From NCBI GenBank assembly GCA_038740375.1, contig JAVYLW010000002.1, positions 81,877 to 145,876 on the forward strand: a stretch of 64,000 nucleotides of DNA, in the 5' to 3' direction. A program made the translations under genes and the position numbers. Of this stretch, positions 25,891 to 64,000 are shown piece by piece; positions within the stretch are counted from its first letter, which is position 1; each line of letters begins with the position of its first letter. The notes under the pieces were generated by a model that saw nothing but the letters and a program-made list of their open reading frames with translations, was not told the origin of the DNA and did no database searches. The stretch is from Candidatus Pacearchaeota archaeon (GTDB taxonomy: Archaea > Nanobdellota > Nanobdellia > Pacearchaeales > GW2011-AR1).

Positions 25891-25924
25891 ATAAAATTAA
25901 AATCTTAAAAATTTGTAAAATAAA

Positions 25925-26752: not shown

Positions 26753-26753
26753 A

Positions 26754-27494
26754 ATGAAAATTTCAAATAAAGAAATAAATAAAGATATAAGAAAATTTAT
26801 AAAAATAGCTGAGATAAGAAAACAAGATATTATTTTAAATATACCCTTCGGAGATATAGCTGTAGCAAAAAGATTATCAAAAAAAAAGAAAATCAGTCTT
26901 CACATATTAGAAGAAGAAAAATTTCAAGTAAAAAATGCAAAAAAATTCATTAAAAAAGCAGAATTTTACATATCTTCCTCAGTATTAAAAACTCCATTTA
27001 AGAATGATTTTTTTGATAAAATATTTATAAGAAATGGTATTTACCAAATATTAAAAAATAAACAATTAATTTTATTCAAAGAAATTTACAGAATTCTAAA
27101 AACAAAAGGAAAATTCATTAACTGGACTATAGCTTTAAATAACAAAAATAAAAAATTTTTCAACAAATTATCGAGCAAAAAAAATGAAATATCAGGATTT
27201 TCGAAAAATATTTTTCAAAAAAAATATTTTGCAAGTAAAGAAGAAATCATATCATGGTTAAAAAAAGCAGGTTTTAGAAAAATAAAAATTTATGATTTAA
27301 AAATTTTTTATTTATTATCAACAGACATTTGGTTTAAAATTGATTTTAAAAAAGATTTAATTAAATCAAAAGAGTGGAACAATTATATTAAATCTTTAAT
27401 ATTCAAATATGAAATATCTGATATTCAAATAAAATATATAAAAAATAATTTTCAATTAAAAATACCTGCATTAATATCTATTGCTGAAAAATAA
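26754..27494 (+). CDS. Class-I methyltransferase-fold-like protein with degenerate SAM motif I, embedded in the hydrogenase operon
   Basis: The track start at 26718 overlaps hydG. The ATG at 26754 sits 1 nt after the hydG stop. DIILNIPFGDIAV occupies the usual LDxGxGxG position. TPFKNDFFDKIFIRNG...LFKEIYRILKTKGKFI resembles the Methyltransf_11 motifs (lPf.d.sFD.v...; Ei.RvLKpgG). Confidence 0.45.
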   Translation: MKISNKEINKDIRKFIKIAEIRKQDIILNIPFGDIAVAKRLSKKKKISLHILEEEKFQVKNAKKFIKKAEFYISSSVLKTPFKNDFFDKIFIRNGIYQILKNKQLILFKEIYRILKTKGKFINWTIALNNKNKKFFNKLSSKKNEISGFSKNIFQKKYFASKEEIISWLKKAGFRKIKIYDLKIFYLLSTDIWFKIDFKKDLIKSKEWNNYIKSLIFKYEISDIQIKYIKNNFQLKIPALISIAEK

Positions 27495-27495
27495 A

Positions 27496-28263
27496 ATGGA
27501 AATTAATCAAAAAAAACCAACTGTAGGATTTTATGGAATATCTGGATGTGCAGGATGCCTTTTAACAGTTTTATTTGAAAATTCTTTTAAAGAATTAACA
27601 GAGCTTGTAAATATAAAAGCATTTCCGCTAATAAAAGAAGATAGCTACAAAGGTTATTTTGATATAGTTTTTATTGAAGGAACAGTATGTTTTGACGAAG
27701 ATATTTTAATAATAAACAAGTTAAGAAAAAGAGCTAAAGTTATTGTGGCTTTGGGATCATGCAGCCACGTAGGAGGAGTTCCCTCAATAAAAAATTTTAA
27801 AGATAAAGAAAAAATAATGAAATTTGTTTATCCTAGAATAAATCATTTAAAAGAAGAAAATCCTACACCTATTGAAAATCACATAAAAGTAGATTATTAT
27901 ATTCCTCAATGCCCTCCTAACAAATCAGAAATAATAGAGTTTATTAAGATTTTTTTAACAGAAAGAAAATGGAAAAATTATAATGAGCCTGTTTGTTTTG
28001 AATGCAGAAAAAAAGCAAATCCCTGCGTATTAGAAAAAGGGGAAATTTGTTTAGGTCCCATAACAAACGGAGGTTGTGGAGCACTATGCCCTTCAAACAA
28101 AACAGAGTGTTATGGATGCAGAGGTCCTACTGATGATGCAAATATAAGGTCATTTAAAGAAATGTTAAAAAATATGGGCTATAAAGAAGAAGATATATTT
28201 GATAAAATGGAAACTTTTGCAGGATTACAATTCAAAAATAAAGAAGAAAAAGATGAAATATAA
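27496..28263 (+). CDS. hydD: [NiFe] hydrogenase small (delta) subunit, group 3-like
   Basis: VGFYGISGCAGC at the N-terminus, plus GSCSHVGG and distal Cys clusters (CFECRK...C; GGCGALCPS...CYGCRGP). The ATG at 27496 lies 1 nt after the preceding stop. Confidence 0.8.
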   Translation: MEINQKKPTVGFYGISGCAGCLLTVLFENSFKELTELVNIKAFPLIKEDSYKGYFDIVFIEGTVCFDEDILIINKLRKRAKVIVALGSCSHVGGVPSIKNFKDKEKIMKFVYPRINHLKEENPTPIENHIKVDYYIPQCPPNKSEIIEFIKIFLTERKWKNYNEPVCFECRKKANPCVLEKGEICLGPITNGGCGALCPSNKTECYGCRGPTDDANIRSFKEMLKNMGYKEEDIFDKMETFAGLQFKNKEEKDEI

Positions 28264-28281
28264 ATTATCTTTTTTTATAAC

Positions 28282-29568
28282 ATGAAAGAAGAAATAAACC
28301 TAAACCACATATGTAAAATAGAAGGTCATGCACATTTATCACTAAAAATAGAGAATAACAAAGTTACTAAATGTGAACTTAAGGCAAGCGAAGGAGCAAG
28401 ATTTTTTGAAGGTCTTGTTTTAAATAAAAATATAAGAGATATACAAGAGATAGTTTCAAGAATATGTGGAATCTGTTCAGGAGCTCATAGTGTTTGTTCA
28501 ATACAAGGTTTAGAAAATGCTCTTAAAATTAGACCTTCAGAACAGCAAAAAAAAATACGAGAAATGTTAATGATTGGTGAAAGAATAAGAAGTCACACAA
28601 CTCATTTATATTTTCTTGCATTACCTGATTATTTCAATAAAGAATCAATTTTACAAATGATGCCCGAACATAAAGAAAAAATCAATGATGCACTTTCTTT
28701 AATTTCTCTTGGAAACAAGATAGTTGAAATCGTTGGCGGAAGAGAAATGCACCCTTTTTTAAAAATTAAAAAAGAGTTTCCAGAAAATGACTTAAAGGAA
28801 ATAAAAAATAAACTTGAAAAAACTAAACCCATTATTTATAAAACTATAAATCTTTTTTCTGGATTAGAATATCCTAAATTAGAAAGAGAAGCTAATTACT
28901 TAAGCTTAAATGAAGAAAATAATTATGCATCTATATCAGGCAATATAAAATCAAGTTTAAACGAATTTGAAACAAAAGATTATAAAAATTTTTTAAAAGA
29001 ATCAATAAAAGAATATTCAACATCTAAATTTGTTTTAATGAAAGATAAACCTTATATGTTAGGAAGCATTTCAAGAGTAAATAATAACTATAATAAGCTC
29101 GATTTTGAAACCAAAGAAATTTTAACTTCATTATTAAAAAATCTTAATATTAAACTGCCATTTAATAATCCTTATCATAACCTTATTTGTCAATCTATAG
29201 AATTATTAGAGTCTGTTAATAAAGCAATATCTTTAATAGAAAATATTGTAAAGATTAAATATGAAAATCAAGATTTTAAAATAAAACAAGGTCATGGAAT
29301 ATCTTGCGTTGAGGCTCCAAGAGGTATTTTATTTCATGAATACAAAATAGATAGATTTGGCAAAATAATTTATTGCAACATAATAACTCCAACAGCTCAA
29401 AATTTAAACATGATGGAAAACGATATAACTTTATTAGTCAATAAATTACTATCTGAAAATAAAACAAAAGATGAAATAGTTAAAGAAGTTGAAAAACTTA
29501 TTAGAGCTTATGATCCTTGTTTTTCATGCTCAACTCATTTTCTAAAGATAAATTGGGAAAAAACCTGA
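28282..29568 (+). CDS. hydA: [NiFe] hydrogenase large (alpha) subunit, group 3-like
   Basis: N-terminal RICGICSGAHS (RxCGxCxxxH) and C-terminal DPCFSCSTH (DPCxxCxxH). A 9-aa tail (FLKINWEKT) follows, consistent with endopeptidase processing. Confidence 0.9.
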   Translation: MKEEINLNHICKIEGHAHLSLKIENNKVTKCELKASEGARFFEGLVLNKNIRDIQEIVSRICGICSGAHSVCSIQGLENALKIRPSEQQKKIREMLMIGERIRSHTTHLYFLALPDYFNKESILQMMPEHKEKINDALSLISLGNKIVEIVGGREMHPFLKIKKEFPENDLKEIKNKLEKTKPIIYKTINLFSGLEYPKLEREANYLSLNEENNYASISGNIKSSLNEFETKDYKNFLKESIKEYSTSKFVLMKDKPYMLGSISRVNNNYNKLDFETKEILTSLLKNLNIKLPFNNPYHNLICQSIELLESVNKAISLIENIVKIKYENQDFKIKQGHGISCVEAPRGILFHEYKIDRFGKIIYCNIITPTAQNLNMMENDITLLVNKLLSENKTKDEIVKEVEKLIRAYDPCFSCSTHFLKINWEKT

Positions 29569-35115: not shown

Positions 35116-35439
35116 TTATTTATCATAAGTAACTCTTAATATTTTTATTTCATTACCCTCTAAAACTAAAGGCTCTCCTCCGCATAAAGGACAATCAAAA
35201 ATAACAAAATCATGTAATCTTTGAATAATTCTTGGCTCTCCAATATAACCGCAATTGCATTTTACCTTTGATTTTTTCAAAAAAACAGAAACATTCCAAG
35301 AGGTTTCATCAAAAAGATGTTCTTTTAAATGATGTGAATCAATTCCTACAAGTTCGCCTAATTCAATATCTATAGAAATAACTTTATCTTTATTAGGAAC
35401 TTGATTAATTATATTTTGAATAAAATGATGTTCATGCAT
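35116..35439 (-). CDS. hypA: Hydrogenase nickel-insertion protein HypA
   Basis: 107 aa. N-terminal MHEHH, with zinc-site CNCGY...CPLCGG. Confidence 0.8.
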   Translation of the reverse strand: MHEHHFIQNIINQVPNKDKVISIDIELGELVGIDSHHLKEHLFDETSWNVSVFLKKSKVKCNCGYIGEPRIIQRLHDFVIFDCPLCGGEPLVLEGNEIKILRVTYDK

Positions 35440-42613: not shown

Positions 42614-43807
42614 TCAATTAACTTTAACCAAATTTCTTAATATCTCATTTATTTCTACTTTTTTTACTGTAGTAATTCTATCACCAGCTCCAGAGTATAT
42701 CAATAGATCTTTATTATTTCTATCAATAATAGCTCCTGTAGGAAATATAACTCTTTTTTGTTCAAAAGTTCCTTGTTCATGCGGTTGAACAGGTGTTATT
42801 AAAAAATCCTTAGATTTAGCTATAACTTTTTCAGGATTATTTAAATCAAATAAAACTCCTCCAACTGAATATAGAGTAACTTTTTTTATTAAATCCTCTC
42901 TTAAACTAGACAACTTCTTATAAATATCGTCTTTAGATCTTAGAATTTTTCTAATCTTTCTCATTATCTCTTTATCTTGATCTTCTTCTTTAAACTCCGT
43001 AACTGCATGATATAATAATAACCAACCTTTCTTTGTTTTTATAGGAGGTGGTCCTGCACCATTTCTTGGACAAAAGCCATCTTCTTCATATATGCAAGGT
43101 ATAGGTTTTAAGTCACCCCAAGATTTTAAATCATTAGAATAAGCTATCCAAATATGCGGTTGACTAAACTGAAAGTTTCCTTCAGGTCTATCAAAAGCAA
43201 CATATTTGCCGTTTATTTTTTCAGGAAATATTACAACGTCTTTATCCTGCTCTCCAAAAACAATACCTTTTCGTTTCCAATTTATACAATCATCAGACAC
43301 TGCTAATGCAGTAGATATATTGTGCTCTCTTGATAAACTAACATAAGTCATAATATATTTATCACCTATTTTAGTTATTCTAGGATCCTCAACACCAAGC
43401 TCGCCATCACTAGAAATTCCATAAAAGCTAGGTTTTTTATCAATTGAAAGTATCTTAAAACCACTTTTATCTAATAAAACTCTTCTAAAATGAGAAATAA
43501 ACTTTAGTCTCTTTGTACGATTCTTAAACAAAATATCAAGGTCTGTATTATCTTCAATTTCATCTTTATAAAATCTGTCAATTTCCACCTTGAATTCCTT
43601 CTTACCAACCATCCTTGGAGAATAAACATACTTATCATCTTCATTTTTAATCAATTTTTCAATTACTCTAACATACATCATAATATTACCATCATCGAGT
43701 CTAACCACGCCAGGATTTAAAACTCCAAGAACTTCAAACTTTCTAGAACTAGGTTTAATATCTTCTGGTCTTAGTAATATTTCCTCTTTTTTAATCTTAA
43801 TAGCCAT
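42614..43807 (-). CDS. GH130-family glycoside phosphorylase/hydrolase (beta-mannoside phosphorylase-like)
   Basis: VLNPGVV...GVEDPRITKIGDKYIMTYV...KDVVIFPEKINGKY...RNGAGPPPIKT..GWLLLYH...IYSGAGD. Confidence 0.75.
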   Translation of the reverse strand: MAIKIKKEEILLRPEDIKPSSRKFEVLGVLNPGVVRLDDGNIMMYVRVIEKLIKNEDDKYVYSPRMVGKKEFKVEIDRFYKDEIEDNTDLDILFKNRTKRLKFISHFRRVLLDKSGFKILSIDKKPSFYGISSDGELGVEDPRITKIGDKYIMTYVSLSREHNISTALAVSDDCINWKRKGIVFGEQDKDVVIFPEKINGKYVAFDRPEGNFQFSQPHIWIAYSNDLKSWGDLKPIPCIYEEDGFCPRNGAGPPPIKTKKGWLLLYHAVTEFKEEDQDKEIMRKIRKILRSKDDIYKKLSSLREDLIKKVTLYSVGGVLFDLNNPEKVIAKSKDFLITPVQPHEQGTFEQKRVIFPTGAIIDRNNKDLLIYSGAGDRITTVKKVEINEILRNLVKVN

Positions 43808-44014
43808 CTTTATGAATTTTCACAAAAATTTTATTTTCTTAAAATTTAAAGGAAAAAAAGATTTATAAACCTTTATAAGAATTTCTCATTTTTTAAAGAT
43901 TAATTCTAAAATTTAATAATTTTTTTTATAAATCTTTTTTTAATTTTTACAGATAACTTTTTAATAAAGATGATTGGGAGTGACATAGTTTATTAAAACA
44001 ATTATTTTTCTATT

Positions 44015-45124
44015 TTACAATAAAACTTTTTCTTCATCTAAAGATTCATAAGCCAAAATATACATACCAGCTTCCCAAGCTTGAAGTAAACCATAGTGTT
44101 TTCTTGTTTTTGGATGAGTCCATTCTGGAAAATTCCCACTAAGATTTCTTTCAGCTAGTTTATACAAAGAACTCTCCGCATCTCTTAATCTATTGCATTT
44201 TATCAATGATAGAATATAAAATCCTCCAATATAACCCCAAATTCCACCATTTAAATAACTGTTCGGTTTTCCTGCCTCACAATCCATATAATAATCTTTC
44301 CAGTCTCTATGTTTTCTAGTAATTGGTGGAAATATTGCTCTTACTGGATAAGGCGTATCTATTTTTTTAGATTTTACATAAGATAATATCTTATTTGCAT
44401 GTTCTTTATCAGCTAAATCATAAACAATAGCAAGAAAATTTCCTAAACTATCAAACCAATCTCCTATCTCTTGATATTTGTTATGATTTTTCCATCTATA
44501 AGGAACATAATAATTTCCATTCCATAAAGATTTATCTTCATCTTCATTTACAGTTTTCTTCAATTTTATAGCAGAATCTTCATCCCATATAAGGTTTAAA
44601 ACTTTATAAAAAAGTGCTTGTGTATTTATAGTATATCCATATTTATGTGGAAAAGCATCCTGCCAGTCAGTTGTGGGAAGTTGTGCAAGCATATTATTTT
44701 CTCCGATATCCTGACATCTAAGCCAATAAATAGCTTTTTCAATATTAGACTTATATTTTTTCATTAAGCTATCATCATTATACCTATCTCTATAAACATA
44801 ATTTCCAATTATAAACCATAGAGTAGAATCTATTGTCTGAAAATCAACATGAGGTTTTCTATCTTCCCACTTATCAACGCAATTTGCAATTTGTCCTGTC
44901 TTTCCTTGATTTTCAGCAAGGGTAATTATACTATTTTTAAAAACTTCTTTAAAAAAAGAATTATTACAAACACTTGCTCCAATCATAGAAATCATCGAGT
45001 CACGAGCCCAAACAGCATTATATCCTTTTGGACCTGCAGATGCATAAAGACCATTAGGAGTTGAGCATAACTCAATTACTTTTATAGCTTTTTCATAACA
45101 TTTCTTCAAAATATCTTTTTCCAT
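44015..45124 (-). CDS. (alpha/alpha)6-barrel glycoside hydrolase, GDE_C / GH100 (neutral invertase)-like
   Basis: NAVWARDSMISMIGA, IDSTLWFIIG, PTTDWQDAF, NSYLNGGIWGYIGGFYI and FPEWTHP...QAWEAGMYI parallel the GH100/debranching-enzyme C-terminal motifs. Confidence 0.6.
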   Translation of the reverse strand: MEKDILKKCYEKAIKVIELCSTPNGLYASAGPKGYNAVWARDSMISMIGASVCNNSFFKEVFKNSIITLAENQGKTGQIANCVDKWEDRKPHVDFQTIDSTLWFIIGNYVYRDRYNDDSLMKKYKSNIEKAIYWLRCQDIGENNMLAQLPTTDWQDAFPHKYGYTINTQALFYKVLNLIWDEDSAIKLKKTVNEDEDKSLWNGNYYVPYRWKNHNKYQEIGDWFDSLGNFLAIVYDLADKEHANKILSYVKSKKIDTPYPVRAIFPPITRKHRDWKDYYMDCEAGKPNSYLNGGIWGYIGGFYILSLIKCNRLRDAESSLYKLAERNLSGNFPEWTHPKTRKHYGLLQAWEAGMYILAYESLDEEKVLL

Positions 45125-45282
45125 TATTCACCAATTTTACATAATTACAAAATAATTTTAGATTATAAACTTAACTTTTATAAAAATATATAAAGTTATA
45201 AGTATAAAATAAGTTTTAGCTATCTAATGTATCTTCTATTAAAATAAAAAGATTAGATTAAATAATTAATATAAAAATTTAT

Positions 45283-46245
45283 TTATTGTTTTTTAATTTC
45301 ATCACTAATAGGAGTCTCTCCCATCTTAGTTCCTTTAATTTTAGAAAGATAATAACCTAAAAAATCTGCAAAATAAATGAATAAAAACATTCTTTCTTCT
45401 CTATGATAATGATAAAATTCAAATTCAAAATAATTATTCATCTTCTGTCTAAAAAAAGCAATTTGTTTTACAAACTCTAAACTTTCTTCTTTATCCAAAA
45501 TAATTATCGGATAAAATCTACTTACAGGAAAAGCTTCAAGTTCATTATGAAAAAGTTCAGTTATTCTATTTGAATGAGCTATTATTTTAGCATCTTCTTC
45601 TAATGAAGTCTGCATTCTATAACAAGCAGGATAAAAATAGTTTGTTCCATATATTAAAGGATTTCTAAATCTAAATTTTTTTGATAAATCTCTAGCATCT
45701 ATTTCAATATTTTTTTTATTTTTATTTAAAACTTTTATTATATCGATAACAATATTTTCTTTTCTTTCTTCTAAAAAAGAAATATCAAATAATTTTAAAA
45801 GAGGGAAAAAAACATAAGGAAAAGTAAATCTTTGATGCAAATCTGATTTTATTTCAATTAAGTGTGTCTTGTTTTCTTTAGCAAGAAAAAGAAGCTCTCC
45901 TCCTGATGTTACTATAACTATATTGCCTTTTATTTTTTTAGATAAAAGTGTATTATAAAAATTCAATACTTCTTTTGTATTACCAGAATAGCTAACTAGT
46001 ATAATTAAAGTATCTCTTTTTAATGAATTTATTCTTCCAGAATAACCAGGACAAACTTCCATAGGAATTTTAAGTTCGTCACGTAGCATTTCTTTCAAAA
46101 CAAGTCCTGCAATATAACATCCACCCATTCCAACAAAAATAATTTTTTTTGGTTTTTTCTCTATTTTAATAACTTTCGTTTTCCAAGCTTCTCTAATTCT
46201 ATCAGGAAATTTATTAATTATATTATATACTATTTTTTCAGCCAT
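45283..46245 (-). CDS. Bifunctional phosphoglucose/phosphomannose isomerase (archaeal SIS-domain PGI/PMI)
   Basis: IIFVGMGGCYIAG, VSYSGNTKE and C-terminal ...GETPISDEIK. 320 aa. Confidence 0.7.
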   Translation of the reverse strand: MAEKIVYNIINKFPDRIREAWKTKVIKIEKKPKKIIFVGMGGCYIAGLVLKEMLRDELKIPMEVCPGYSGRINSLKRDTLIILVSYSGNTKEVLNFYNTLLSKKIKGNIVIVTSGGELLFLAKENKTHLIEIKSDLHQRFTFPYVFFPLLKLFDISFLEERKENIVIDIIKVLNKNKKNIEIDARDLSKKFRFRNPLIYGTNYFYPACYRMQTSLEEDAKIIAHSNRITELFHNELEAFPVSRFYPIIILDKEESLEFVKQIAFFRQKMNNYFEFEFYHYHREERMFLFIYFADFLGYYLSKIKGTKMGETPISDEIKKQ

Positions 46246-46332
46246 GAAATATTTTAAAATTTTTTTCTCTTTTTTAATCTAAATAAAAGTATAGTTAATT
46301 TATAAATTTTACAATACAACCAAATTTTTATT

Positions 46333-47397
46333 TTATTTAACTTTTTCTAAACTTCTTAATATATCTGAAATTTTTATTTTTCTTAAAGTTATATACTTAT
46401 CTGCAGAACCAGAATAAATTAAAACAGATTTTTTATCTAAATCTTCAACTATTCCTGTTGGAAAAGAAACATTATTAACAAAACCTTTTTTATCATAGAA
46501 ATTTGAAGGAGAAAAAAGAGGTTTTTCAATAGGTGTTTGAGCAATTATTTTTTCAGGATTTTTCAAATCTAATAAAACAGCACCAGCACTATAAACTCTA
46601 TTATTAACGCCGTGGTAAATCTCAAGCCATCCACTACTTGTTTTTAAAGGAGGACAACCAGCTCCAATTCTGATATTATCCCAAGAAGAATCTCTTCTTG
46701 GATGAAGTATACATCTTGACTTGCCCCAATAAATCAAATTTTTAGAATAACTAATCCAAATAGAAGGATTATTAAAATTAAAAGTTCCAACAGGTCTATG
46801 TAAAGCTACAAATTCTTTATTAATTTTTTCAGGAAATAATGTAACATCTTTATTCTCATGATTAAATATTATCCCTTTTCTTTCCCATTTTACAAGATTT
46901 TTTGAAACAGCTAAAGAAGTTGTTATACCATCTCTAATAGAAACAGAAACATATGTCATATAATACTTATCATTAATTTTAACAATTCTAGGATCCTCCA
47001 CTCCACATTCTTCATATTCCTCACAAGGAAAAAAAACAGGTTCTTTTTCAATTTTAATTATTTTCTCTCCAGATTTATCTAAAACTACTTTTCTAAAATG
47101 TGAAATATTAGATAATCTAACAGTATTATTTCTTAAAAAAATAACATTACCTTCTTTTCTTAAAAAAATATCATCATCAACCTTCTCTATCTTATATTTT
47201 CCTTTTCTTTCAGGAATTATTACAGGATATTCATATTTTGATTTAGACAAAAATCTCTCTGCAACTCTAACAAACAAAATAACTCTGTTTTCCTTATCCC
47301 TTATAGCACCAGGATTAAAAACTCCTTCAATTTTCCAATTTTTAAAATATGGCTTAAAATCATTCGGTCTAAGCAAAAGTTTTTCTTTTACCTTCAT
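46333..47397 (-). CDS. GH130-family glycoside phosphorylase/hydrolase (second paralog)
   Basis: VFNPGAI...GVEDPRIVKINDKYYMTYV...KDVTLFPEKINKEF...IGAGCPPLKT..GWLEIYHG...IYSGSAD. Confidence 0.75.
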   Translation of the reverse strand: MKVKEKLLLRPNDFKPYFKNWKIEGVFNPGAIRDKENRVILFVRVAERFLSKSKYEYPVIIPERKGKYKIEKVDDDIFLRKEGNVIFLRNNTVRLSNISHFRKVVLDKSGEKIIKIEKEPVFFPCEEYEECGVEDPRIVKINDKYYMTYVSVSIRDGITTSLAVSKNLVKWERKGIIFNHENKDVTLFPEKINKEFVALHRPVGTFNFNNPSIWISYSKNLIYWGKSRCILHPRRDSSWDNIRIGAGCPPLKTSSGWLEIYHGVNNRVYSAGAVLLDLKNPEKIIAQTPIEKPLFSPSNFYDKKGFVNNVSFPTGIVEDLDKKSVLIYSGSADKYITLRKIKISDILRSLEKVK

Positions 47398-54278: not shown

Positions 54279-55265
54279 ATGGTGAATAATATTGCAATAA
54301 ACGGTCTTGGAAGAATAGGAAGAGTTTTTCTTAAAATAGCCATTGAAAAAGGAATTAAAGTAATTGCTATTAATGACATTGTTGATATTCCTACGATTGT
54401 TTATTTTATGAAATATGATTCTGTTTATGGTCCTTACAAAGAAAAAATAGAAACTGGCAATGATTTTATTAAAATTAAAGGAAAAAAAATTCTTGTTTAT
54501 AATGAAAAAGATCCTGAAAAACTACCTTGGAAAAAATTAGGTATTGATGTTGTTATTGAATCAACTGGTGTTTTTACAGATAGAGAGAGTTGTATGAAAC
54601 ATATTAAAGCAGGCGCTAAAAAAGTTATTTTATCTGCTCCTGGAGATAATATGGATATTACTGTTGTTCCTGGAGTTAATATGGACTTGTTAAAAAAAGA
54701 ACATACCATCATTTCTATGGCTTCTTGCACAACAAACTGCCTTGCTCCTATTGTAAAAGTATTAAATGATAATTTTAAAATTGAAAAAGGCTACATGACA
54801 ACTTGTCATGCTTATACTAACGATCAAAGAATTGTAGATAGTCCTCACAAAAAATTAAGAAGAGGAAGAGCAGGTGCTATAAATATTATTCCAACATCAA
54901 CAGGTGCTGCAAAATCTGTCGGAGAAGTAATACCCTCTTTAAAAGGAAAATTAGACGGGCTTTCTCTTCGAGTTCCAACTTCTTGCGGTAGTATAGTTGA
55001 TTTTGTTTGTATTGTTAGTAAACCTACTACAAAAGAAGAAGTAAATGAAGTAATTAAAAAAGCATCTTTAAATGAATTAAAAGGAATTCTAGAGTATACT
55101 GAAGATGAAATTGTTTCAACAGACATAATAGGAAATTCAAGCTCTTCTGTTTTTGATTCAAAATTAACTCAAGTTAATGGAAATATGATAAAAGTTCTTT
55201 CATGGTATGATAATGAATATGGATATTCTAATAGATTAGTAGACTTAGTTAAAACTATAAGATAA
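54279..55265 (+). CDS. gap: Glyceraldehyde-3-phosphate dehydrogenase, class I (bacterial/eukaryal type)
   Basis: IAINGLGRIGR, active site SCTTNCLAP, and WYDNEYGYSNR. Confidence 0.9.
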   Translation: MVNNIAINGLGRIGRVFLKIAIEKGIKVIAINDIVDIPTIVYFMKYDSVYGPYKEKIETGNDFIKIKGKKILVYNEKDPEKLPWKKLGIDVVIESTGVFTDRESCMKHIKAGAKKVILSAPGDNMDITVVPGVNMDLLKKEHTIISMASCTTNCLAPIVKVLNDNFKIEKGYMTTCHAYTNDQRIVDSPHKKLRRGRAGAINIIPTSTGAAKSVGEVIPSLKGKLDGLSLRVPTSCGSIVDFVCIVSKPTTKEEVNEVIKKASLNELKGILEYTEDEIVSTDIIGNSSSSVFDSKLTQVNGNMIKVLSWYDNEYGYSNRLVDLVKTIR

Positions 55266-59464: not shown

Positions 59465-61204
59465 ATGACAAATCAGATTAAACAACCAATTGTTACAGTA
59501 GCAGGTCATGTTGATCATGGAAAAACAAGTATATTGGACAATATAAGAAAAACAGGAGTTGCAGAAACAGAGCCTGGAGGAATAACACAAAAAATATCAT
59601 TTACTTTAGTACCTCTTGAAAATATAAAAAAAAGATGTCCTTTAATAGAAACAAAAAAAATCAAATTAGATTTTCCAGGATTTTTGTTCATAGATACTCC
59701 AGGACATGCAGCATTTTCTCATTTAAGAAAAAGAGGAGGAAGCTTGGCTGACCTTGCAGTATTAGTAATGGACATAAATGAAGGTATAATGCCTCAAACT
59801 AAAGAAGTGATTGAATTATTAAGATTGAATAAAACACCTTTTATTATAGCATTAAACAAAATAGATAACATTTCAGGATGGAAAAAATTGAGTAATGATT
59901 TAAAAGAATCAATTGAAAATCAATCACAAAATGTAAAATTACAATTTAATGAAAAAGTCTTTACTATAATAGGTTCTCTTCATCATCACGGATTCAAAGC
60001 AAGGTTATATTATGAAATATCTGATTTTACAAAAGAACTTGCACTTATACCGTGTTCAGCAAGAACAGGAGAAGGAATCAATGAATTAATTTTGATGTTA
60101 TGTGGACTATCTCAAAAATTTTTAAAAGAAAATCTAAAACTTGGAAAAATAGGAAGAGGTGTAATATTGGAAATAAAAAAAGAGAGATCTATACAATATA
60201 TTGAATCAATACTTTATGATGGAACCTTGACAAATGAAGATGAAATAGCGATTGCAAGTTTTGATGAGCCAATAATTACAAAAATAAGAATATTAGAAGA
60301 AATTCAAGCAGTATCTTCAAAATTTAAAGCATCAAAAAAAGTAACAGCTTCTACAGGAATAAGAATGCAACTTGTTAATTCAGAAGGAATACTTCCAGGA
60401 ATGCCCTTTATCGTAATAAAAGACAATATAAATGAAATAAAAAAAGAATTCAAAAATGAAATAGAAATAAATATTAAAACTGACAAAAACGGAATAGTCA
60501 TAAAAGCAGATTCTTTAGGAAGTCTTGAAGCATTGATAACTTTATTAAAAGAAAAAAATATAAACATAATTTCAGCAGGTATTGGAAAAATCACAAAAAA
60601 AGATATTTTAATAGCTAAAGCAAATTTAGAAAGTGATCCTATTAATGCTATAATTCTTGGTTTTAATACAGAAGAAGATGAAGAAGCAAAAAATACTGAA
60701 AAAGGAAAAGTTTTGATATTAAAAAATGAAGTTATATATAAACTCATTGAAGATTTATTAAAAATTCAAGAACAAAAAAGAAATGAGATTAAAAAAGAAA
60801 GACTTATGCAACTAGCAACAATATCAAAAATAAGAATTCTCCACAACTTTGTTTTTAGAAATTCTAATCCTGCAATTTTCGGAGTAAGAGTTGAAGCAGG
60901 AAAAATTAAACCAAATATTCCTTTAATGAATGAAAATGGAGAACAAATTGCTCATATAAAAGGAATTCAAGAAAATCAAAAACAATTAGAAGAAGCTCTT
61001 CAAAATCAAGAAGTAGCTATATCACTACCAGGTGTTAATTTTGAACGCCAGCTTAAAGATGTTGAATATTTGTATTCAGATATGTCTGAACAACAATTTA
61101 GAAAATTCAAAGAAAATAAAGACATTCTTTCAAATGAAGAGATTCAAGTTCTTCAAAAGATTGCAGAAATAAAAAGGAAAAAAAATATTTCTTGGGGAAT
61201 ATGA
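59465..61204 (+). CDS. infB: Translation initiation factor aIF5B (archaeal IF-2)
   Basis: PIVTVAGHVDHGKTSILD...GGITQ...PGFLFIDTPGHAAFSHLRKRGGSLADLAVLVMDINEGIMPQT...KTPFIIALNKIDNISGW matches the archaeal/eukaryal IF5B pattern rather than bacterial IF2. Confidence 0.9.
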   Translation: MTNQIKQPIVTVAGHVDHGKTSILDNIRKTGVAETEPGGITQKISFTLVPLENIKKRCPLIETKKIKLDFPGFLFIDTPGHAAFSHLRKRGGSLADLAVLVMDINEGIMPQTKEVIELLRLNKTPFIIALNKIDNISGWKKLSNDLKESIENQSQNVKLQFNEKVFTIIGSLHHHGFKARLYYEISDFTKELALIPCSARTGEGINELILMLCGLSQKFLKENLKLGKIGRGVILEIKKERSIQYIESILYDGTLTNEDEIAIASFDEPIITKIRILEEIQAVSSKFKASKKVTASTGIRMQLVNSEGILPGMPFIVIKDNINEIKKEFKNEIEINIKTDKNGIVIKADSLGSLEALITLLKEKNINIISAGIGKITKKDILIAKANLESDPINAIILGFNTEEDEEAKNTEKGKVLILKNEVIYKLIEDLLKIQEQKRNEIKKERLMQLATISKIRILHNFVFRNSNPAIFGVRVEAGKIKPNIPLMNENGEQIAHIKGIQENQKQLEEALQNQEVAISLPGVNFERQLKDVEYLYSDMSEQQFRKFKENKDILSNEEIQVLQKIAEIKRKKNISWGI

Positions 61205-61309: not shown

Positions 61310-61837
61310 TTATTTTTTACTAAAATTTTTTTTTGAGAATAATAAATTTTCTATTTTTCTTAATTCTTCATCTGTTGGCTCTAATTCATCAAAATCTTTT
61401 TCTTGAAATAAACTCTCTTCTAATTCTAATCTAGATTCTATTGATTTTTTTATTAATTTTTTGTTAATTCTTGAAACTTTATTGTATAATATTTCATATT
61501 TTCTTTGTAGTTTCTTAATACTCTCTACTTCTTCTTTAGTTTTATTTTCTTTTTTTATTAAATTATTTAGATATTTTTGATACCTTTCATCAACAGTGTT
61601 GAATATAGGATCATAAACCTCATATTTATATTCTCCATTCTCATAACCTTTTATAATACTAATCATAATAAAAAGACACCCTTTAGCACTATTTATTCTC
61701 TCTCCATAGATTTCCTTTATATCAGATAATTTAGCAGGCCTGCCATAATTTTTTTCATTTCTCTGTTTATAATACTTTCTTCTAAGTTCTTCAAGTTTTC
61801 TTACTTTGTCCAAATATTTATCCATGTTAAAATTCAT
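61310..61837 (-). CDS. Hypothetical charged/coiled-coil protein (175 aa)
   Basis: ORF only. K/E-rich with heptad-like stretches, no recognised motif. Confidence 0.4.
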   Translation of the reverse strand: MNFNMDKYLDKVRKLEELRRKYYKQRNEKNYGRPAKLSDIKEIYGERINSAKGCLFIMISIIKGYENGEYKYEVYDPIFNTVDERYQKYLNNLIKKENKTKEEVESIKKLQRKYEILYNKVSRINKKLIKKSIESRLELEESLFQEKDFDELEPTDEELRKIENLLFSKKNFSKK

Positions 61838-62022
61838 TTTTTTAAACTTAAAAATAAAAATATTCTGTAAAATATATATTAAAAAAAATGAATCGTATTA
61901 TATTGACTTTTATTAAAAAAATTAATAGTTGTAAGTATAGTCTTACTCACTTTAGAACAATGTAATAAGTAACCTATTTAAAAAGAAAAAATTAATTCTT
62001 AAAATTGAATGGATAATAATTA

Positions 62023-62784
62023 TCACACAAATTCCTTAATTAAATTATTTTCTAATAAAAATTTAAACCTGTTCCTAAAACTATTTCTTTCTAAAGCAAG
62101 AGTAACTGCAGACCTATTACAACAATCAATATACTCATCTGTAATTTTTATGTATGGAAAAGGAATTCTTTTGTAAAAACAAATATGTCTTGGATGCTGA
62201 GTTTGTATAACTAAATCCCAGTCCTCTAAATAACCAACATATCCTAAACAAATCATAAGATTAATACAATCTGGAATAAAATTCTTACTTTTATCTAATG
62301 TAAATAAACCTCCAATTTCATAGATTTTATTAGAATTTTCATAAATACTCAAAAATTTCTTTAAATTTTCCTTATCTTTTTGCCTAATTGTTGATTCGCT
62401 CCATGGATTATCATGACACCCCCCTGCAATCCTAACTGCTAAATCCCTCAATTTATAATGATTCATTAAATTTAGTTCAGTAGGTAATATTCCATAAGGA
62501 TTATCTTTATTAATGACTTTCAAAGCACAAACAATTCCATCATCAGAATCTAAAACAAAAAATCTAGCAAAACTATCAAAAGGATCAACTCCTCCAATTT
62601 TAGACTCTTTAATCCCTCTTTTATTATAATACAGTGACCTTAGCGAGATTAACATATTTTTTTCAAAAGAATCTTTTACCTCTCTAAAGAAAAAATTTTG
62701 TTTTTTTAATTTACTTTCAAGGTTATTAAAAAGTTTATTATTTATAACACTCCTATTTTCTTCATAAAATATATTTGTCGTCAT
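62023..62784 (-). CDS. Hypothetical protein, possibly a GNAT-fold N-acyl synthase of the FeeM/LuxI-like type
   Basis: LRSLYYNKRGI...GGVDPFDSFARFFVLDSDDGIVCALKVINKDNPYGILPTE resembles the (R.rvF..gw...E.D.fD..a.hlv....g.vvG..Rl....lp.e) core. The C-terminal HPRHICFYKRIPFPYI resembles the ...h..fY.r.GF... segment. Pattern-level only. Confidence 0.3.
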   Translation of the reverse strand: MTTNIFYEENRSVINNKLFNNLESKLKKQNFFFREVKDSFEKNMLISLRSLYYNKRGIKESKIGGVDPFDSFARFFVLDSDDGIVCALKVINKDNPYGILPTELNLMNHYKLRDLAVRIAGGCHDNPWSESTIRQKDKENLKKFLSIYENSNKIYEIGGLFTLDKSKNFIPDCINLMICLGYVGYLEDWDLVIQTQHPRHICFYKRIPFPYIKITDEYIDCCNRSAVTLALERNSFRNRFKFLLENNLIKEFV

Positions 62785-62798
62785 TATACTACACTACA

Positions 62799-62882
62799 AT
62801 TTTTATAAAATATTAAAATTTAATTTTTAAATACTTAACTATTTTTATAAAATATTAAAATTTAATTTTTAAATATTTAACT
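62799..62882. repeat. 42-bp tandem duplication (2 copies, 1 mismatch) in a divergent intergenic region; contains a TATA-box-like tttttataaaat
   Basis: 62799-62840 reads atttttataaaatattaaaatttaatttttaaatacttaact. 62841-62882 is identical except for a c>t change. Confidence 0.9.
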
Positions 62883-63063
62883 AAATGGATGAATATAAAC
62901 TAAAATAGATAATACAAGATATATAATAAACAATAAAAATAAAATATATAAATGAAAATTATTGCTAAAAATTAAATTAAGTAAGAAAAAATAATAAAAA
63001 AATAAAAACAAGAGATTAAAATTATTTTTAGAAAAATTATTTACGAGAAGTTTAAGAATAAAA

Positions 63064-64000
63064 ATGATAACAACAAAAATAATAAAACCTAAAAAAACTT
63101 TAGAAAAAAAATTTAAAAGTTTAAAAAAATATGACGGATTTTCTTCTGAAATATTTAATGAAACAGAAATAAATAAAAGATATTTAAAAAAAAGAAATAA
63201 AGAATTAGGAAAAATTATTCAAAAATATATAAATGAAAGTGAAGAATTCAAGAAAGAGCATTATGAAGAATATATGCAAGCAAGATATGAATTAGCAGAA
63301 ATTAACGATCCTTATGCTTTGTATATTGTTAAAAAAAGATATGATTATTTAAAAGCAACTAATCAAGAAAAAATTCAAGCAGCAAGATTAGGAATATTTA
63401 GAGCAACAAAAGACTATAATCCCAAATACAATTTTTCAGTGTACGCTAATAATAAAATAAGAGCTCAAATGAGTATTCTTGCTCAAGAAATATCAGATTC
63501 CAAAAATGCAGTTCATATTCCGTTAAACTCTAAATCAAAAATATTCAAGTTAGAATTTATTGAAAATAAACTAAAAGAAAAATTAAAAAGAGAGCCTACA
63601 ACTGAAGAATTATCCGATGAATATAATGATATATTTAAAAAAAATAAAATTTCAATAAAAAAATCTGAAATTGAAATAATTAAAAAATTTATAAAAGAAA
63701 AAGAAACATATTCAATAGAAAGAGATTTATATGATTACATAAATAAAAAAATAAATACTCAAACAAAGAGCCCTTTAGAAATTTTAATTTGTAATGAAGA
63801 AAATGAATCTATTAAAAACATATGTAATAAATTTTTACAAAATCTAAATTCTCTTGAAAGAGAAATATTTTATTTAAAATTTGGTGAACTTAAAAATAAA
63901 AAAGAAATAATAAAAACTATAAAAGAAAAAAGAAATGTCAAATGCTCAAAAAAAAGTCTTGAAAAAACTATATCAGAAATTAGTGAAAAATTTATAGAAA
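63064..64000 (+). CDS. Sigma-70 family RNA polymerase sigma factor-like protein (3'-partial; runs off the window)
   Basis: Not in the supplied ORF track. My manual translation from ATG 63064 is open for 312 codons. [87 protein letters not shown] aligns with RpoD regions 2.2-3.0 ([37 protein letters not shown]...IRIPVH...[10 protein letters not shown]). [15 protein letters not shown] resembles region 4 (L..rE..vl.lRfG). Confidence 0.65.
   Translation, partial: [312 protein letters not shown]

What the first reader, a model, noticed from the sequence alone, without database searches (positions are those of the whole stretch)
63064..64000. Bacterial-type sigma-70 family gene on an otherwise archaeal contig (ORF missing from the supplied track)
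From ATG 63064 the frame stays open to the window edge (312 codons by manual translation). Residues ~100-190 align residue for residue with sigma-70 regions 2.2-3.0. [11 protein letters not shown] matches [23 protein letters not shown] matches [19 protein letters not shown] matches TIRIPVH and [13 protein letters not shown] matches [28 protein letters not shown] resembles region 4.

Sigma factors are a hallmark of bacterial transcription, whereas archaea use TBP/TFB. Within 2-10 kb on the same contig are unambiguous archaeal genes (aIF5B at 59465-61204, a Dph2 fragment, uS10), and the ORF shares the extreme AT-rich, Lys-rich style of the host genome. The promoter-melting aromatic pair (YATWW) is replaced by YANNK, suggesting a diverged or repurposed function.

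Possible explanations:
- lateral acquisition from a bacterial host or partner
- an integrated mobile or viral element
- a sigma-fold protein co-opted as an archaeal DNA-binding regulator

I vaguely recall sigma-like ORFs being mentioned for some DPANN bins, but I cannot verify that here.
Basis: partly seen in the sequence, partly recalled or inferred. Interest (0 to 1): 0.85.

Follow-up and report, generated by a model that had tools for sequence, protein, structure and literature searches.

The report
Two-module sigma-factor-like gene in DPANN archaeon
A tiny symbiotic-type archaeon (Pacearchaeota) really does carry a gene related to bacterial sigma factors; such genes were already reported in this group, but this copy is an unusual fusion of two sigma-like modules whose role in an archaeal cell is unknown.

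Summary
The ORF from 63064 stays open to the window edge and is a true sigma-70-family homologue (RpoD_Cterm E=2e-12; SigA/RpoD structures E=3e-9; 151 bits against a family HMM, shuffles at most -2). The contig is archaeal (aIF5B, archaeal uS10, TIM, ApgM). Its closest named aIF5B relatives are Pacearchaeota/Nanoarchaeota. Codon usage matches the contig, so it is not a chimera.

The phenomenon is not new. Castelle et al. 2021 reported sigma-70 genes in DPANN archaea, and NCBI already names relatives this way.

New details:
1. The window shows only half the gene. The full protein (606 aa) is a group-1/3-like module (regions 1.2-2-3-4) fused to a second, ECF-like module (sigma2+sigma4).
2. Single-module relatives lie next to the archaeal Rpo7-Spt4-S24e-S27ae operon in at least five distinct archaeal loci.
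3. Those relatives are only 27-38% identical where neighbouring genes are 61-79% (median).
4. The window copy lies elsewhere, in a variable region. It is a singleton with degraded core-binding, DNA-melting and -35 residues.

Most likely it is a domesticated, fast-evolving sigma-fold DNA-binding regulator rather than a canonical initiation factor. The mechanism is inferred, not shown.

The parts
63064..64000 (+). First 312 codons of a 606-aa sigma-70-family protein (P0001). The gene runs off the window edge. The window holds the whole N-terminal module except the last residues of region 4.2.
   Evidence: P0001 is 100% identical over aa 1-312. Full-length TIGR02937 scores 56 bits (cutoff 42.9) with two stretches.
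63196..63228 (+). Family-specific N-terminal motif N-x-x-L-G-x-x-I-x-x-Y (aa 45-55, [11 protein letters not shown]). It derives from sigma region 1.2 and is shared with the archaeal single-module family but not with the bacterial sigmas retrieved.
   Evidence: Motif scan, alignment A1, and the alignment to SigA region 1.2.
63277..63477 (+). Sigma2 domain (regions 2.1-2.4, aa 72-138). Region 2.2 reads [14 protein letters not shown] where the canonical sequence is DLIQEGNxGLxKA. The family signature DYNP is present. Region 2.3 reads [12 protein letters not shown], so the WW dyad has become NK.
   Evidence: Local sigma2 HMM E=5.9e-14; residue table; AlphaFold pLDDT about 90-96.
63508..63663 (+). 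Sigma3 domain (regions 3.0-3.1, aa 149-200: AVHIPLN ... [13 protein letters not shown]).
   Evidence: Pfam Sigma70_r3 at aa 162-186, E=0.036, weak. Aligned in RpoD_Cterm and PDB hits. pLDDT 83-90.
63838..64000 (+). Sigma4 of the N-terminal module (aa 259-312+). Region 4.1 is [15 protein letters not shown]. Region 4.2 has a 6-residue insertion in the HTH turn, and the -35 recognition helix is changed from TRERVRQIE to [10 protein letters not shown].
   Evidence: Alignment A1; residue table; RpoD_Cterm matched to profile position 209-211 of 238; pLDDT 67-80.
62785..63063 (.). 279-bp divergent intergenic region, very AT-rich, between the sigma-like gene and the ORFan at 62023-62784 (-). It contains a 42-bp unit repeated twice in tandem (62799-62883; 97% matches over the array, with a 35-bp core identical in both copies). 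Presumed promoter region.
   Evidence: 2 copies in the window and none in shuffles.
61310..62784 (-). Two ORFans (175 aa and 253 aa) between aIF5B and the sigma-like gene. They have no family, viral or defence match. Together with the sigma gene they occupy a position that is variable in close relatives.
   Evidence: Relatives L014 and L015 hold other genes here.
59465..61204 (+). aIF5B, the archaeal marker that anchors the contig's identity and taxonomy (context, not part of the system).
   Evidence: the closest named relatives are about 75% identical (Pacearchaeota / Nanoarchaeota), and it sits on the same 173,028-bp contig as P0001.

Best explanation
The gene encodes a resident, selected member of the sigma-70-like protein family already known from DPANN archaea (Pacearchaeota/Woesearchaeota). 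The family descends from a bacterial group-1/2/3-type sigma factor acquired long ago.

This copy is a divergent paralogue with an unusual architecture:
- An N-terminal module with regions 1.2-2-3-4 (aa ~40-320). The window shows only this part.
- A fused second, ECF-like sigma2+sigma4 module (aa ~410-580).

Shown:
- Homology and fold.
- The archaeal host.
- Host-like codon usage.
- The two-module architecture.
- Conserved placement of single-module relatives beside the archaeal Rpo7-Spt4 operon.
- Very fast sequence evolution of those relatives.

Inferred: the window protein has lost the canonical core-binding residues (EGN to AAR), the DNA-melting tryptophan dyad (WW to NK) and the -35-reading residues. 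No bacterial RNA polymerase is expected in this organism. It therefore most likely does not act as a classical promoter-melting initiation factor. Instead it probably acts as a sigma-fold DNA-binding transcription regulator with two helix-turn-helix domains. It may dock on the archaeal RNA polymerase clamp, the surface used by Spt4/5 and TFE, as suggested by the Rpo7/Spt4 linkage of its relatives.
For: Homology:
- NCBIfam RpoD_Cterm E=2.3e-12.
- PDB SigA/RpoD E=3e-9.
- Family HMM 151 bits, against shuffles of at most -2.
- AlphaFold model with pLDDT about 90 in sigma2 and sigma3. The top 50 PDB fold matches are all sigmaA/sigmaS, probability 1.00.

Second module:
- TIGR02937 E=1.8e-10 on the C-half alone, and 56 bits (cutoff 42.9) with two stretches on the full length.
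- SigZ, SigM and Sig70_bacteroi1 models also match.
- Pfam Sigma70_r4_2 at aa 526-577, E=8.5e-5.
- Fold matches of the C-half are all ECF sigmas.

Archaeal host and residency:
- Archaeal marker genes; aIF5B relatives are Pacearchaeota.
- Uniform GC.
- Codon-usage correlation r=0.89 and GC3 of 0.087, like the other genes.
- An open frame of 606 codons has chance P about 1e-24.

Family membership:
- Shares the NxxLGxxIxxY and DYNP signatures.
- The NJ sister group is all-family, including the Pacearchaeota protein MEM0465604.1, in 61 of 100 bootstraps.

Link to archaeal RNAP:
- Relatives lie divergently next to Rpo7-Spt4-S24e-S27ae in L004, L005, L006-8, L010-11 and L012-13.

Prior report: Castelle et al. 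2021, PMC8204110.

No bacterial-type promoter enrichment: 151 sites against 148 +/- 12 in shuffles.
Against: - No experiment or interaction prediction supports binding to archaeal RNAP, and none could be run here.
- The window copy is not at the Rpo7 locus, so the linkage argument is indirect for this gene.
- It is a singleton with no relative above 32% identity among 1.8 billion representatives.
- It sits in a variable region flanked by ORFans, which would also fit a mobile or recently decaying gene.
- The C-terminal module rests on a database protein whose DNA lies outside the window. Its Pfam and fold support is sub-threshold or low-confidence.
- Phylogenetic placement within the archaeal family is only moderately supported.
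- Other family members keep near-canonical bacterial core-binding and -35 residues. A purely archaeal regulator model does not obviously require that.
Confidence: 0.55

Rival explanations
1. The gene belongs to an integrated mobile element or virus (or a defence island) inserted downstream of aIF5B. The sigma-like protein serves the element, for example by redirecting transcription, as phage sigma factors do.
For: - The region downstream of aIF5B differs in close relatives. L014 holds HEPN plus an N6/N4 methyltransferase, and L015 holds an NTP-transferase plus unknowns.
- The two neighbouring genes are ORFans.
- P0001 is a singleton.
- A defence-associated sigma (MzaA) is among the profile hits of the family.
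Against: - No PHROGs hit for the sigma gene or its neighbours at the 0.01 reporting threshold, apart from one marginal match of the 175-aa ORFan (61310-61837) to an unknown-function family (phrog_12157, E=0.0015).
- No PADLOC hit for them.
- Viral fold matches are weaker than cellular ones.
- No integrase, flanking tRNA or flanking repeat is seen in the 10 kb before the gene.
- Codon usage and GC3 are indistinguishable from the host.
- MzaA similarity covers only the generic sigma part and is far below cutoff.
- The element's right side lies outside the window, so this rival cannot be excluded.
Confidence: 0.2
2. The protein is a true sigma factor aimed at a bacterial RNA polymerase. It would be an effector that the DPANN cell delivers to a bacterial partner or host to reprogramme its transcription. 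Fast evolution of the family would reflect an arms race or host switching.
For: - Several archaeal family members keep near-canonical bacterial determinants: DLIQEGN in region 2.2, FSTYAxxWI in region 2.3, and TRERVRQIE in region 4.2.
- They keep these despite 27-38% overall identity between close relatives whose neighbouring genes are 61-79% identical. This is the pattern expected for conflict genes.
- No anti-sigma factor is known in these genomes (Castelle 2021).
Against: - The window protein itself has lost exactly those determinants.
- No secretion signal or delivery system is linked to it. This was not specifically tested.
- Known DPANN hosts are archaea (general knowledge).
- The conserved position beside Rpo7/Spt4 points to the cell's own transcription machinery.
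Confidence: 0.08
3. The gene is a functionless relic: a duplicated, fused sigma-like paralogue drifting towards loss.
For: - Degraded functional motifs.
- Sub-threshold Pfam domain scores.
- Singleton status and a variable location.
- Extreme Lys/Ile/Asn/Glu composition driven by 20% GC.
Against: - A 606-codon open frame where 8.7% of random codons are stops has P about 1e-24.
- The sigma2 and sigma3 folds are predicted with high confidence.
- Family signatures are retained.
Confidence: 0.12
4. It is an assembly or binning artefact: bacterial DNA wrongly joined to an archaeal contig.
For: None beyond the a priori oddity of a sigma factor in an archaeon.
Against: - GC is 20-30% throughout the window, with no break.
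- Codon usage correlates at r=0.89 and GC3 is 0.087, as for the archaeal genes.
- P0001 and aIF5B are each recorded on a contig of 173,028 bp.
- Related sigma-like genes lie between unmistakably archaeal genes in independent assemblies from NCBI, JGI, ENA and Logan.
- Castelle et al. excluded mis-binning for the family.
Confidence: 0.02

Closest known systems
Sigma-70-like proteins of DPANN archaea (fam00359 of Castelle et al. 2021; for example NCBI MEM0465604.1, 'sigma-70 family RNA polymerase sigma factor [Candidatus Pacearchaeota archaeon]')
   Same: - The same kind of host (Pacearchaeota/Nanoarchaeota).
- The same region 1.2-2-3-4 layout in the N-terminal module.
- The shared NxxLGxxIxxY and DYNP signatures.
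- Grouped together in the NJ tree.
   Different: - Relatives are single-module proteins of 280-350 aa, some up to 443 aa.
- In every locus fetched they sit beside Rpo7-Spt4.
- The window protein is 606 aa with an added ECF-like module, lies at another locus, and has at most 32% identity to any of them.
- It has more degraded functional residues.
Bacterial group 1-3 sigma factors (RpoD/SigA, RpoS, SigB/F/G)
   Same: Homologous sigma2, sigma3 and sigma4 domains and a region 1.2 remnant. These are the best profile, sequence and fold matches.
   Different: - Scores are far below every equivalog cutoff (47 bits against 354 for RpoD_Cterm).
- E407/G408/N409 have become A/A/R and W433/W434 have become N/K.
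- The -35 helix is altered and carries a 6-aa insertion (E. coli numbering from my own knowledge).
- The host is an archaeon with no bacterial RNAP core gene among the window ORFs that were scanned.
ECF (group 4) sigma factors such as SigH, SigE/AlgU, SigW, SigZ
   Same: The C-terminal module (aa ~410-580) matches sigma2+sigma4-only models (TIGR02937, SigZ, SigM). Its fold hits are all ECF sigmas.
   Different: - It is not a free-standing protein but the C-terminal half of a larger sigma-like protein.
- The score is just under the cutoff when taken alone (40.7 against 42.9).
- No anti-sigma gene is recognisable nearby.
Sigma-family proteins with extra modules (P0106 with two sigma4 domains; MzaA of the MZA anti-phage system)
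   Same: Precedent for sigma-family proteins that carry additional domains or a duplicated sigma4.
   Different: P0106 duplicates only sigma4. MzaA has a long non-sigma N-terminal part. Neither has a full second sigma2+sigma4 unit. My searches found no paper describing a tandem sigma-sigma fusion.

Membership tests
Sigma-70 family (superfamily level) | Significant match to a sigma-70 superfamily profile at or above the curated cutoff | tested here: met
   Full-length P0001 scores 56.0 bits on TIGR02937 (cutoff 42.9). The window fragment alone scores 24.5 bits, below cutoff, but E=1.8e-5, and RpoD_Cterm gives E=2.3e-12.
Sigma-70 family (superfamily level) | Sigma2 domain (regions 2.1-2.4) present | tested here: met
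   Local sigma2 HMM E=5.9e-14 over aa 72-138; pLDDT 90-96; fold matches to sigmaA. The Pfam Sigma70_r2 model itself gives no hit.
Sigma-70 family (superfamily level) | Sigma4 helix-turn-helix domain present | tested here: inconclusive
   N-module: region 4.1-4.2 aligns in family and RpoD profiles but carries a 6-aa insertion, and no Pfam r4 hit is found. C-module: Sigma70_r4_2 E=8.5e-5, 22.6 bits, below the 25.7 cutoff.
Functional bacterial-type initiation sigma factor | Conserved region 2.2 residues that bind the beta-prime clamp helices (DLIQEGN) | tested here: not met
   P0001 reads EKIQAAR. Only the Q is kept. Other archaeal family members, such as P0011 with DDLIQEGN, do keep it.
Functional bacterial-type initiation sigma factor | Aromatic residues of region 2.3 used for -10 melting (F, Y, W, W in FSTYATWW) | tested here: not met
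   P0001 reads FSVYANNK. F and Y are kept, and both W are lost.
Functional bacterial-type initiation sigma factor | Region 4.2 recognition helix (TRERVRQIE in primary sigmas) | tested here: not met
   P0001 N-module reads [10 protein letters not shown] after a 6-aa insertion. The C-module helix ISLEASWQRISRIRKRL is ECF-like.
Functional bacterial-type initiation sigma factor | A bacterial RNAP core (alpha2-beta-beta') in the same cell | not testable with these tools
   No bacterial RNAP gene appears among the window ORFs scanned. Several ORFs, such as 7266-8375, were never scanned, and the rest of the genome is not available. Castelle et al. report only archaeal TBP/TFB/TFE in these genomes.
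Functional bacterial-type initiation sigma factor | Use of -35/-10 promoters in the genome | tested here: not met
   Sigma-70-type promoter-like sites: 151 found against 148.3 +/- 12.2 in shuffles. This is a crude test in 76% A+T DNA.
DPANN archaeal sigma-like family (Castelle fam00359; operationally the motif-bearing clade found here) | Family signatures NxxLGxxIxxY (N-terminus) and (D/N)(Y/F)NP in place of the bacterial KF(D/E)Y | tested here: met
   [11 protein letters not shown] at aa 45-55 and KDYNP at aa 116-120. I could not check membership in fam00359 itself, because the supplementary files held do not list it.
DPANN archaeal sigma-like family | Position beside the Rpo7-Spt4-S24e-S27ae operon and a PIN_9 gene | tested here: not met
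   Window ORFs show no similarity to those neighbours. The gene lies 1.9 kb downstream of aIF5B instead. What lies downstream of the gene is outside the window.
DPANN archaeal sigma-like family | Phylogenetic grouping with family members rather than bacterial sigmas | tested here: inconclusive
   The NJ sister group is P0007, P0013, P0010 and P0002, all family members. An all-family sister group appears in 61 of 100 bootstraps, but no clean family bipartition is recovered.
ECF sigma factors (C-terminal module) | Sigma2+sigma4 only, matching ECF profiles above cutoff | tested here: inconclusive
   TIGR02937 on the C-half alone scores 40.7 bits against a cutoff of 42.9, E=1.8e-10. SigZ gives E=4.6e-6 and SigM E=5.9e-4. 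Fold hits are all ECF sigmas, but at E about 1e-2 from a model with pLDDT 51.

The most novel reading that the evidence does not exclude
DPANN sigma-like proteins may be fast-evolving conflict or specificity factors that plug a bacterial-style promoter-recognition module into the archaeal transcription machinery, or into a bacterial partner's polymerase.

In the single-module relatives, the sigma-like gene and the unknown gene next to it evolve far faster than the adjacent Rpo7, Spt4 and PIN genes. Yet they keep bacterial core-binding and -35-reading residues. The window protein, with two complete sigma modules in one chain, would be a new architecture: a 'double sigma' able to read two DNA elements or bridge two partners.
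Probability: 0.15. Interest if true: 0.85.

Novelty: new variant of a known kind. Interest (0 to 1): 0.55.

Why it matters
Sigma factors define bacterial transcription initiation, while archaea use TBP/TFB/TFE. A sigma-fold protein kept under selection in archaea asks whether the two initiation systems can be mixed.

The presence of such genes in DPANN archaea is already published, so the bare finding is a confirmation. My literature searches found no description of the following:
- A fused two-module sigma.
- The fixed position of the single-module relatives beside the archaeal RNA polymerase stalk and Spt4 genes.
- Their very fast evolution together with a neighbouring unknown gene.

These points turn a curiosity into testable hypotheses:
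- Does the protein bind the archaeal clamp coiled-coil in competition with Spt4/5 or TFE?
- Is the fast-evolving neighbour the missing anti-sigma-like partner?

If so, this would be a rare case of a bacterial basal factor re-used in archaeal transcription.

Tried and rejected
1. Pfam domain HMMs on the window fragment gave only Sigma70_r3 at E=0.036. They are not sensitive enough for this divergent, AT-biased protein; full-length NCBIfam profiles and PDB sequences were.
2. The word-indexed protein search with the fragment found nothing. With the family alignment it returned mostly bacterial primary sigmas.
3. Extending the contig failed. Exact look-ups of the 253-aa neighbour and of P0001 were not on record. 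The genome and metagenome scans found only bacterial sigmas, L001-L003.
4. Testing the C-half as an internal duplicate of the N-half: BLASTP gave E=1e-4 at best and the family HMM gave E=0.08, with negative bit scores. It is not a recent tandem duplication. The hhalign run was a trivial self-match and was discarded.
5. phmmer of the C-half against PDB found no sigma. Only profiles and fold search did.
6. dN/dS from contigs encoding identical family proteins gave no information, because the DNA copies are identical.
7. Viral origin: PHROGs gave nothing for the sigma gene or the 253-aa ORFan, only a marginal unknown-function hit (phrog_12157, E=0.0015) for the 175-aa ORFan. BFVD gave only generic phage sigmas, weaker than cellular ones.
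8. Defence island: PADLOC gave no hit for the gene or its neighbours.
9. Bacterial-type promoters are not enriched.
10. The supplement of Castelle 2021 was searched for fam00359 and 'sigma', and neither was found in the files held.
11. Similarity of the window's neighbouring ORFs to the conserved neighbours of the canonical locus, or to L014/L015: none.
Full report
**1. The observation.**
- Translation from ATG 63064 gives 312 codons with no stop up to the window edge. In this base composition (39% A, 36% T) 8.7% of random codons are stops, so an open run of 312 codons has a chance of about 5e-13.
- The fragment matches sigma-70-family profiles over most of its length. RpoD_Cterm (TIGR02393) gives E=2.3e-12 over aa 91-293. 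The cyanobacterial RpoD, SigB and SigB/F/G models give E=1e-9 to 1e-10.
- Solved SigA/RpoD chains match at E=3e-9 over aa 45-286.
- The protein is 19% Lys, 13% Glu and 12.5% Ile, so I ran a composition control. An HMM built from the closest relatives, without this protein, scores it at 151.3 bits. A thousand shuffles give -14.5 +/- 3.5, maximum -2.2.
- Pfam's separate domain models almost miss it on the fragment: only Sigma70_r3 appears, at E=0.036.

**2. The host.**
- The contig is archaeal.
  - The IF2-like gene at 59465-61204 passes the archaeal aIF5B equivalog (571 bits, cutoff 554.75) and fails bacterial IF-2 (184 bits, cutoff 424).
  - uS10 fits the archaeal/eukaryotic model (135 bits) better than the bacterial one (78 bits).
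  - TIM is the short archaeal type, and ApgM and an archaeal class I aldolase are present.
- The closest named aIF5B relatives, about 75% identical, are Candidatus Pacearchaeota and Nanoarchaeota MAGs.
- GC is 20-30% across the window, with no break.
- The sigma ORF's codon usage correlates with the other genes at r=0.89 (their range is 0.85-0.96). Its GC3 is 0.087.
- Both the sigma-like protein and aIF5B are recorded on a contig of 173,028 bp.
- A chimeric join or recent transfer is therefore very unlikely.

**3. The whole protein.**
- A filter-free HMMER search of 1.8 billion representatives found one protein, P0001, that is 100% identical over aa 1-312 and 606 aa long. The next best hit is only 32% identical, E=2e-16.
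- The extra 294 residues are not junk.
  - On their own they match the sigma-70/ECF superfamily model TIGR02937 (E=1.8e-10, 40.7 bits), plus the SigZ, SigM and Bacteroidetes ECF-type models, over sigma2 and sigma4.
  - The full-length protein scores 56 bits (cutoff 42.9) with two separate stretches.
  - Pfam finds Sigma70_r4_2 at aa 526-577, E=8.5e-5, just under cutoff.
- An AlphaFold model of the full protein is all-helical. It is confident in the N-terminal sigma2 and sigma3 domains (pLDDT 83-96) and moderate in sigma4 and in aa 410-490 (67-81).
- Its best 50 PDB fold matches are all sigmaA/sigmaS chains, probability 1.00.
- A separate single-sequence model of the C-half is poor (pLDDT 51). 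Even so, its top fold matches are all ECF sigmas (SigH, AlgU, SigE, SigK, SigW, CnrH), aligned over about 180 columns at E about 1e-2.
- The C-half is not a recent copy of the N-half.
- So the protein is a fusion of a group-1/3-like sigma (regions 1.2-2-3-4) with an ECF-like sigma (sigma2-sigma4).
- I could not read the DNA beyond base 64000. This part rests on the database protein.

**4. Relatives and their context.**
- The closest relatives form a subfamily of 280-443-aa proteins. Most are single-module, though P0106 carries a second sigma4. They share an N-terminal motif N-x-x-L-G-x-x-I-x-x-Y, derived from region 1.2. They also have (D/N)(Y/F)NP where bacterial sigmas have KF(D/E)Y. The window protein has both signatures.
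- These relatives are clear sigma factors by Pfam, with r2, r3 and r4 above cutoff in most of those scanned (P0010 is sub-threshold).
- One of them is NCBI MEM0465604.1, 'sigma-70 family RNA polymerase sigma factor [Candidatus Pacearchaeota archaeon]'.
- For six of them I could fetch the encoding contigs, and all are archaeal.
  - In five distinct loci (L004, L005, L006-8, L010-11, L012-13) the gene lies divergently next to Rpo7 (RpoE), followed by Spt4, S24e and S27ae.
  - On the other side come a small unknown gene and a PIN_9 gene, then DUF3368, BacA, DUF357 and an amino-acid kinase.
  - The sixth locus (L009) is too short on the upstream side but has the same downstream genes.
- The window copy is not at this locus. 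None of its ORFs resemble those neighbours.
- In the two closest relatives of the organism (aIF5B 78-80% identical), the space downstream of aIF5B holds other genes: HEPN plus a DNA methyltransferase, or an NTP-transferase plus unknowns. No sigma is present there.
- An NJ tree places the window's N-module with family members P0007, P0013, P0010 and P0002. An all-family sister group appears in 61 of 100 bootstraps, which is moderate support.

**5. Rate of evolution.**
- Across the five syntenic loci, Rpo7 is 81-91% identical, Spt4 64-90% and PIN 58-75%. The median of all shared neighbours is 61-79%.
- The sigma-like gene is only 27-38% identical, at or near the bottom in every pair.
- The gene immediately downstream of it is also fast-evolving. 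One type is 30-34% identical among L004, L006 and L012. A second type is 41% identical between L005 and L009.
- This looks like either rapid diversification of a gene pair or repeated replacement at a fixed site.
- A dN/dS test was not possible, because the available DNA copies are identical.

**6. Functional residues** (E. coli numbering from my own knowledge; the residues themselves).
- Some family members keep near-canonical determinants: DDLIQEGN in region 2.2, which binds the beta-prime clamp helices; FSTYATRWI or FTTYAEKWIRQAI in regions 2.3/2.4; and TRERVRQIE in region 4.2.
- The window protein reads EKIQAAR, so E407/G408/N409 are lost. It reads [12 protein letters not shown], so W433/W434 are lost. 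After a 6-residue insertion in the helix-turn-helix it reads [10 protein letters not shown].
- It therefore fails the residue-level tests for a classical promoter-melting sigma.
- Sigma-70-type promoter-like sites are not enriched on the contig: 151 against 148 +/- 12 in shuffles.

**7. What is known.**
- Castelle et al. 2021 (PMC8204110) reported sigma-70 genes (fam00359) in DPANN genomes, especially Woesearchaeota. They excluded mis-binning, found no anti-sigma factors, and left the mechanism open.
- My other literature searches found nothing on the Rpo7/Spt4 linkage, on fast evolution, or on tandem sigma fusions.
- The library covers open-access papers and bioRxiv only, so absence there is not proof of novelty.

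**8. Interpretation.**
- *Shown:* a sigma-70-family gene is resident in a Pacearchaeota-type genome. It is kept open by selection, and it encodes two sigma modules.
- *Inferred:* it acts as a sigma-fold DNA-binding regulator rather than a canonical initiation factor. The family as a whole may work with the archaeal RNA polymerase, perhaps at the clamp coiled-coil shared with Spt4/5 and TFE. This inference rests on the conserved neighbourhood of the relatives and on established homology between the bacterial beta-prime and archaeal Rpo1 clamp helices.
- *Rivals:* a gene carried by a mobile element in a variable region (about 0.2), a decaying relic (about 0.12), an effector aimed at a bacterial polymerase (about 0.08), and an artefact (about 0.02).

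**9. Verdict.**
- The finding is real and correctly interpreted, but the headline is already published.
- The specific gene is a new architectural variant (a double sigma) of a known kind.
- The context analysis gives concrete hypotheses for a still unexplained phenomenon.
- Interest 0.55.

Noticed in passing
window 62799-62883: A 42-bp AT-rich unit (ATTTTTATAAAATATTAAAATTTAATTTTTAAATACTTAACT) is repeated twice in tandem in the divergent intergenic region between the sigma-like gene and the ORFan at 62023-62784. The array is 97% matching, and a 35-bp core is identical in both copies. It occurs nowhere else in the window and never in shuffles. It may be a duplicated promoter or operator.
   Followed up: partly
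L004 3927-4715, L006 2029-2610, L012 3949-4542; L005 7645-8034, L009 1067-1462: The unknown gene immediately downstream of the single-module archaeal sigma-like genes comes in two unrelated types. It evolves about as fast as the sigma gene (30-34% and 41% identity where flanking genes are 60-90%). It is a candidate co-evolving partner, possibly the 'missing' anti-sigma-like factor.
   Followed up: partly
related proteins P0002, P0006, P0010, P0011, P0013, P0106 (also P0059): Six of about 15 archaeal sigma-like family members end in the dipeptide Ala-Ala. That is far more than chance, and it resembles C-terminal degradation tags. It could mean control by proteolysis. The window protein ends in ...VKENK instead.
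   Followed up: no
L004 2837-2844, L010 2440-2454, L005 6527-6552: The divergent start codons of Rpo7 and the sigma-like gene are only 8, 15 and 26 bp apart in three loci. The two promoters must therefore overlap the coding regions or each other.
   Followed up: no
P0106 (L010 2455-3786), aa 310-361 and 379-428: This archaeal family member beside Rpo7 carries a second sigma4 helix-turn-helix at its C-terminus (E=1e-6 with a local sigma4 HMM). P0149 and P0039 also have two sigma4 domains. Extra sigma modules therefore recur in this protein neighbourhood.
   Followed up: partly
window 54279-55265: The GAPDH is the type I enzyme (TIGR01534, 426 bits, above cutoff). By general knowledge this is the bacterial/eukaryotic type rather than the archaeal type II. 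Together with a bacterial-type PGI C-terminal domain (45283-46245) and a ROK glucokinase (23436-24254), it suggests further bacterial-derived genes on this archaeal contig.
   Followed up: no
window 24913-29568 and 35116-35439: A cluster encodes a 4Fe-4S protein, an NAD-binding/FeS subunit, a small subunit (Oxidored_q6) and a NiFe hydrogenase large subunit. A methyltransferase-like ORF (26718-27494) sits among them, and HypA lies nearby. It looks like a cytoplasmic group-3-type [NiFe] hydrogenase in a small DPANN genome.
   Followed up: no
window 599-5863 (-): A 1754-aa ORF whose only recognisable part is a thioredoxin-like domain around aa 608-670. It appears to be a giant protein of unknown function.
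   Followed up: no
L014 11786-13459 and L015 5966-9184: In the closest relatives, the position downstream of aIF5B holds a HEPN protein plus an N6/N4 DNA methyltransferase, or an NTP-transferase plus ORFans. This site seems to be a hotspot for variable, possibly defence-related, genes.
   Followed up: partly
window 42614-47397: Two GH130 (mannoside phosphorylase-like) genes, a GDE_C/invertase-like glycosidase and a PGI lie together, near several glycosyltransferases. They may form a carbohydrate-scavenging island next to a complete lower glycolysis: PGK, GAPDH, enolase, ApgM, TIM and FBA.
   Followed up: no
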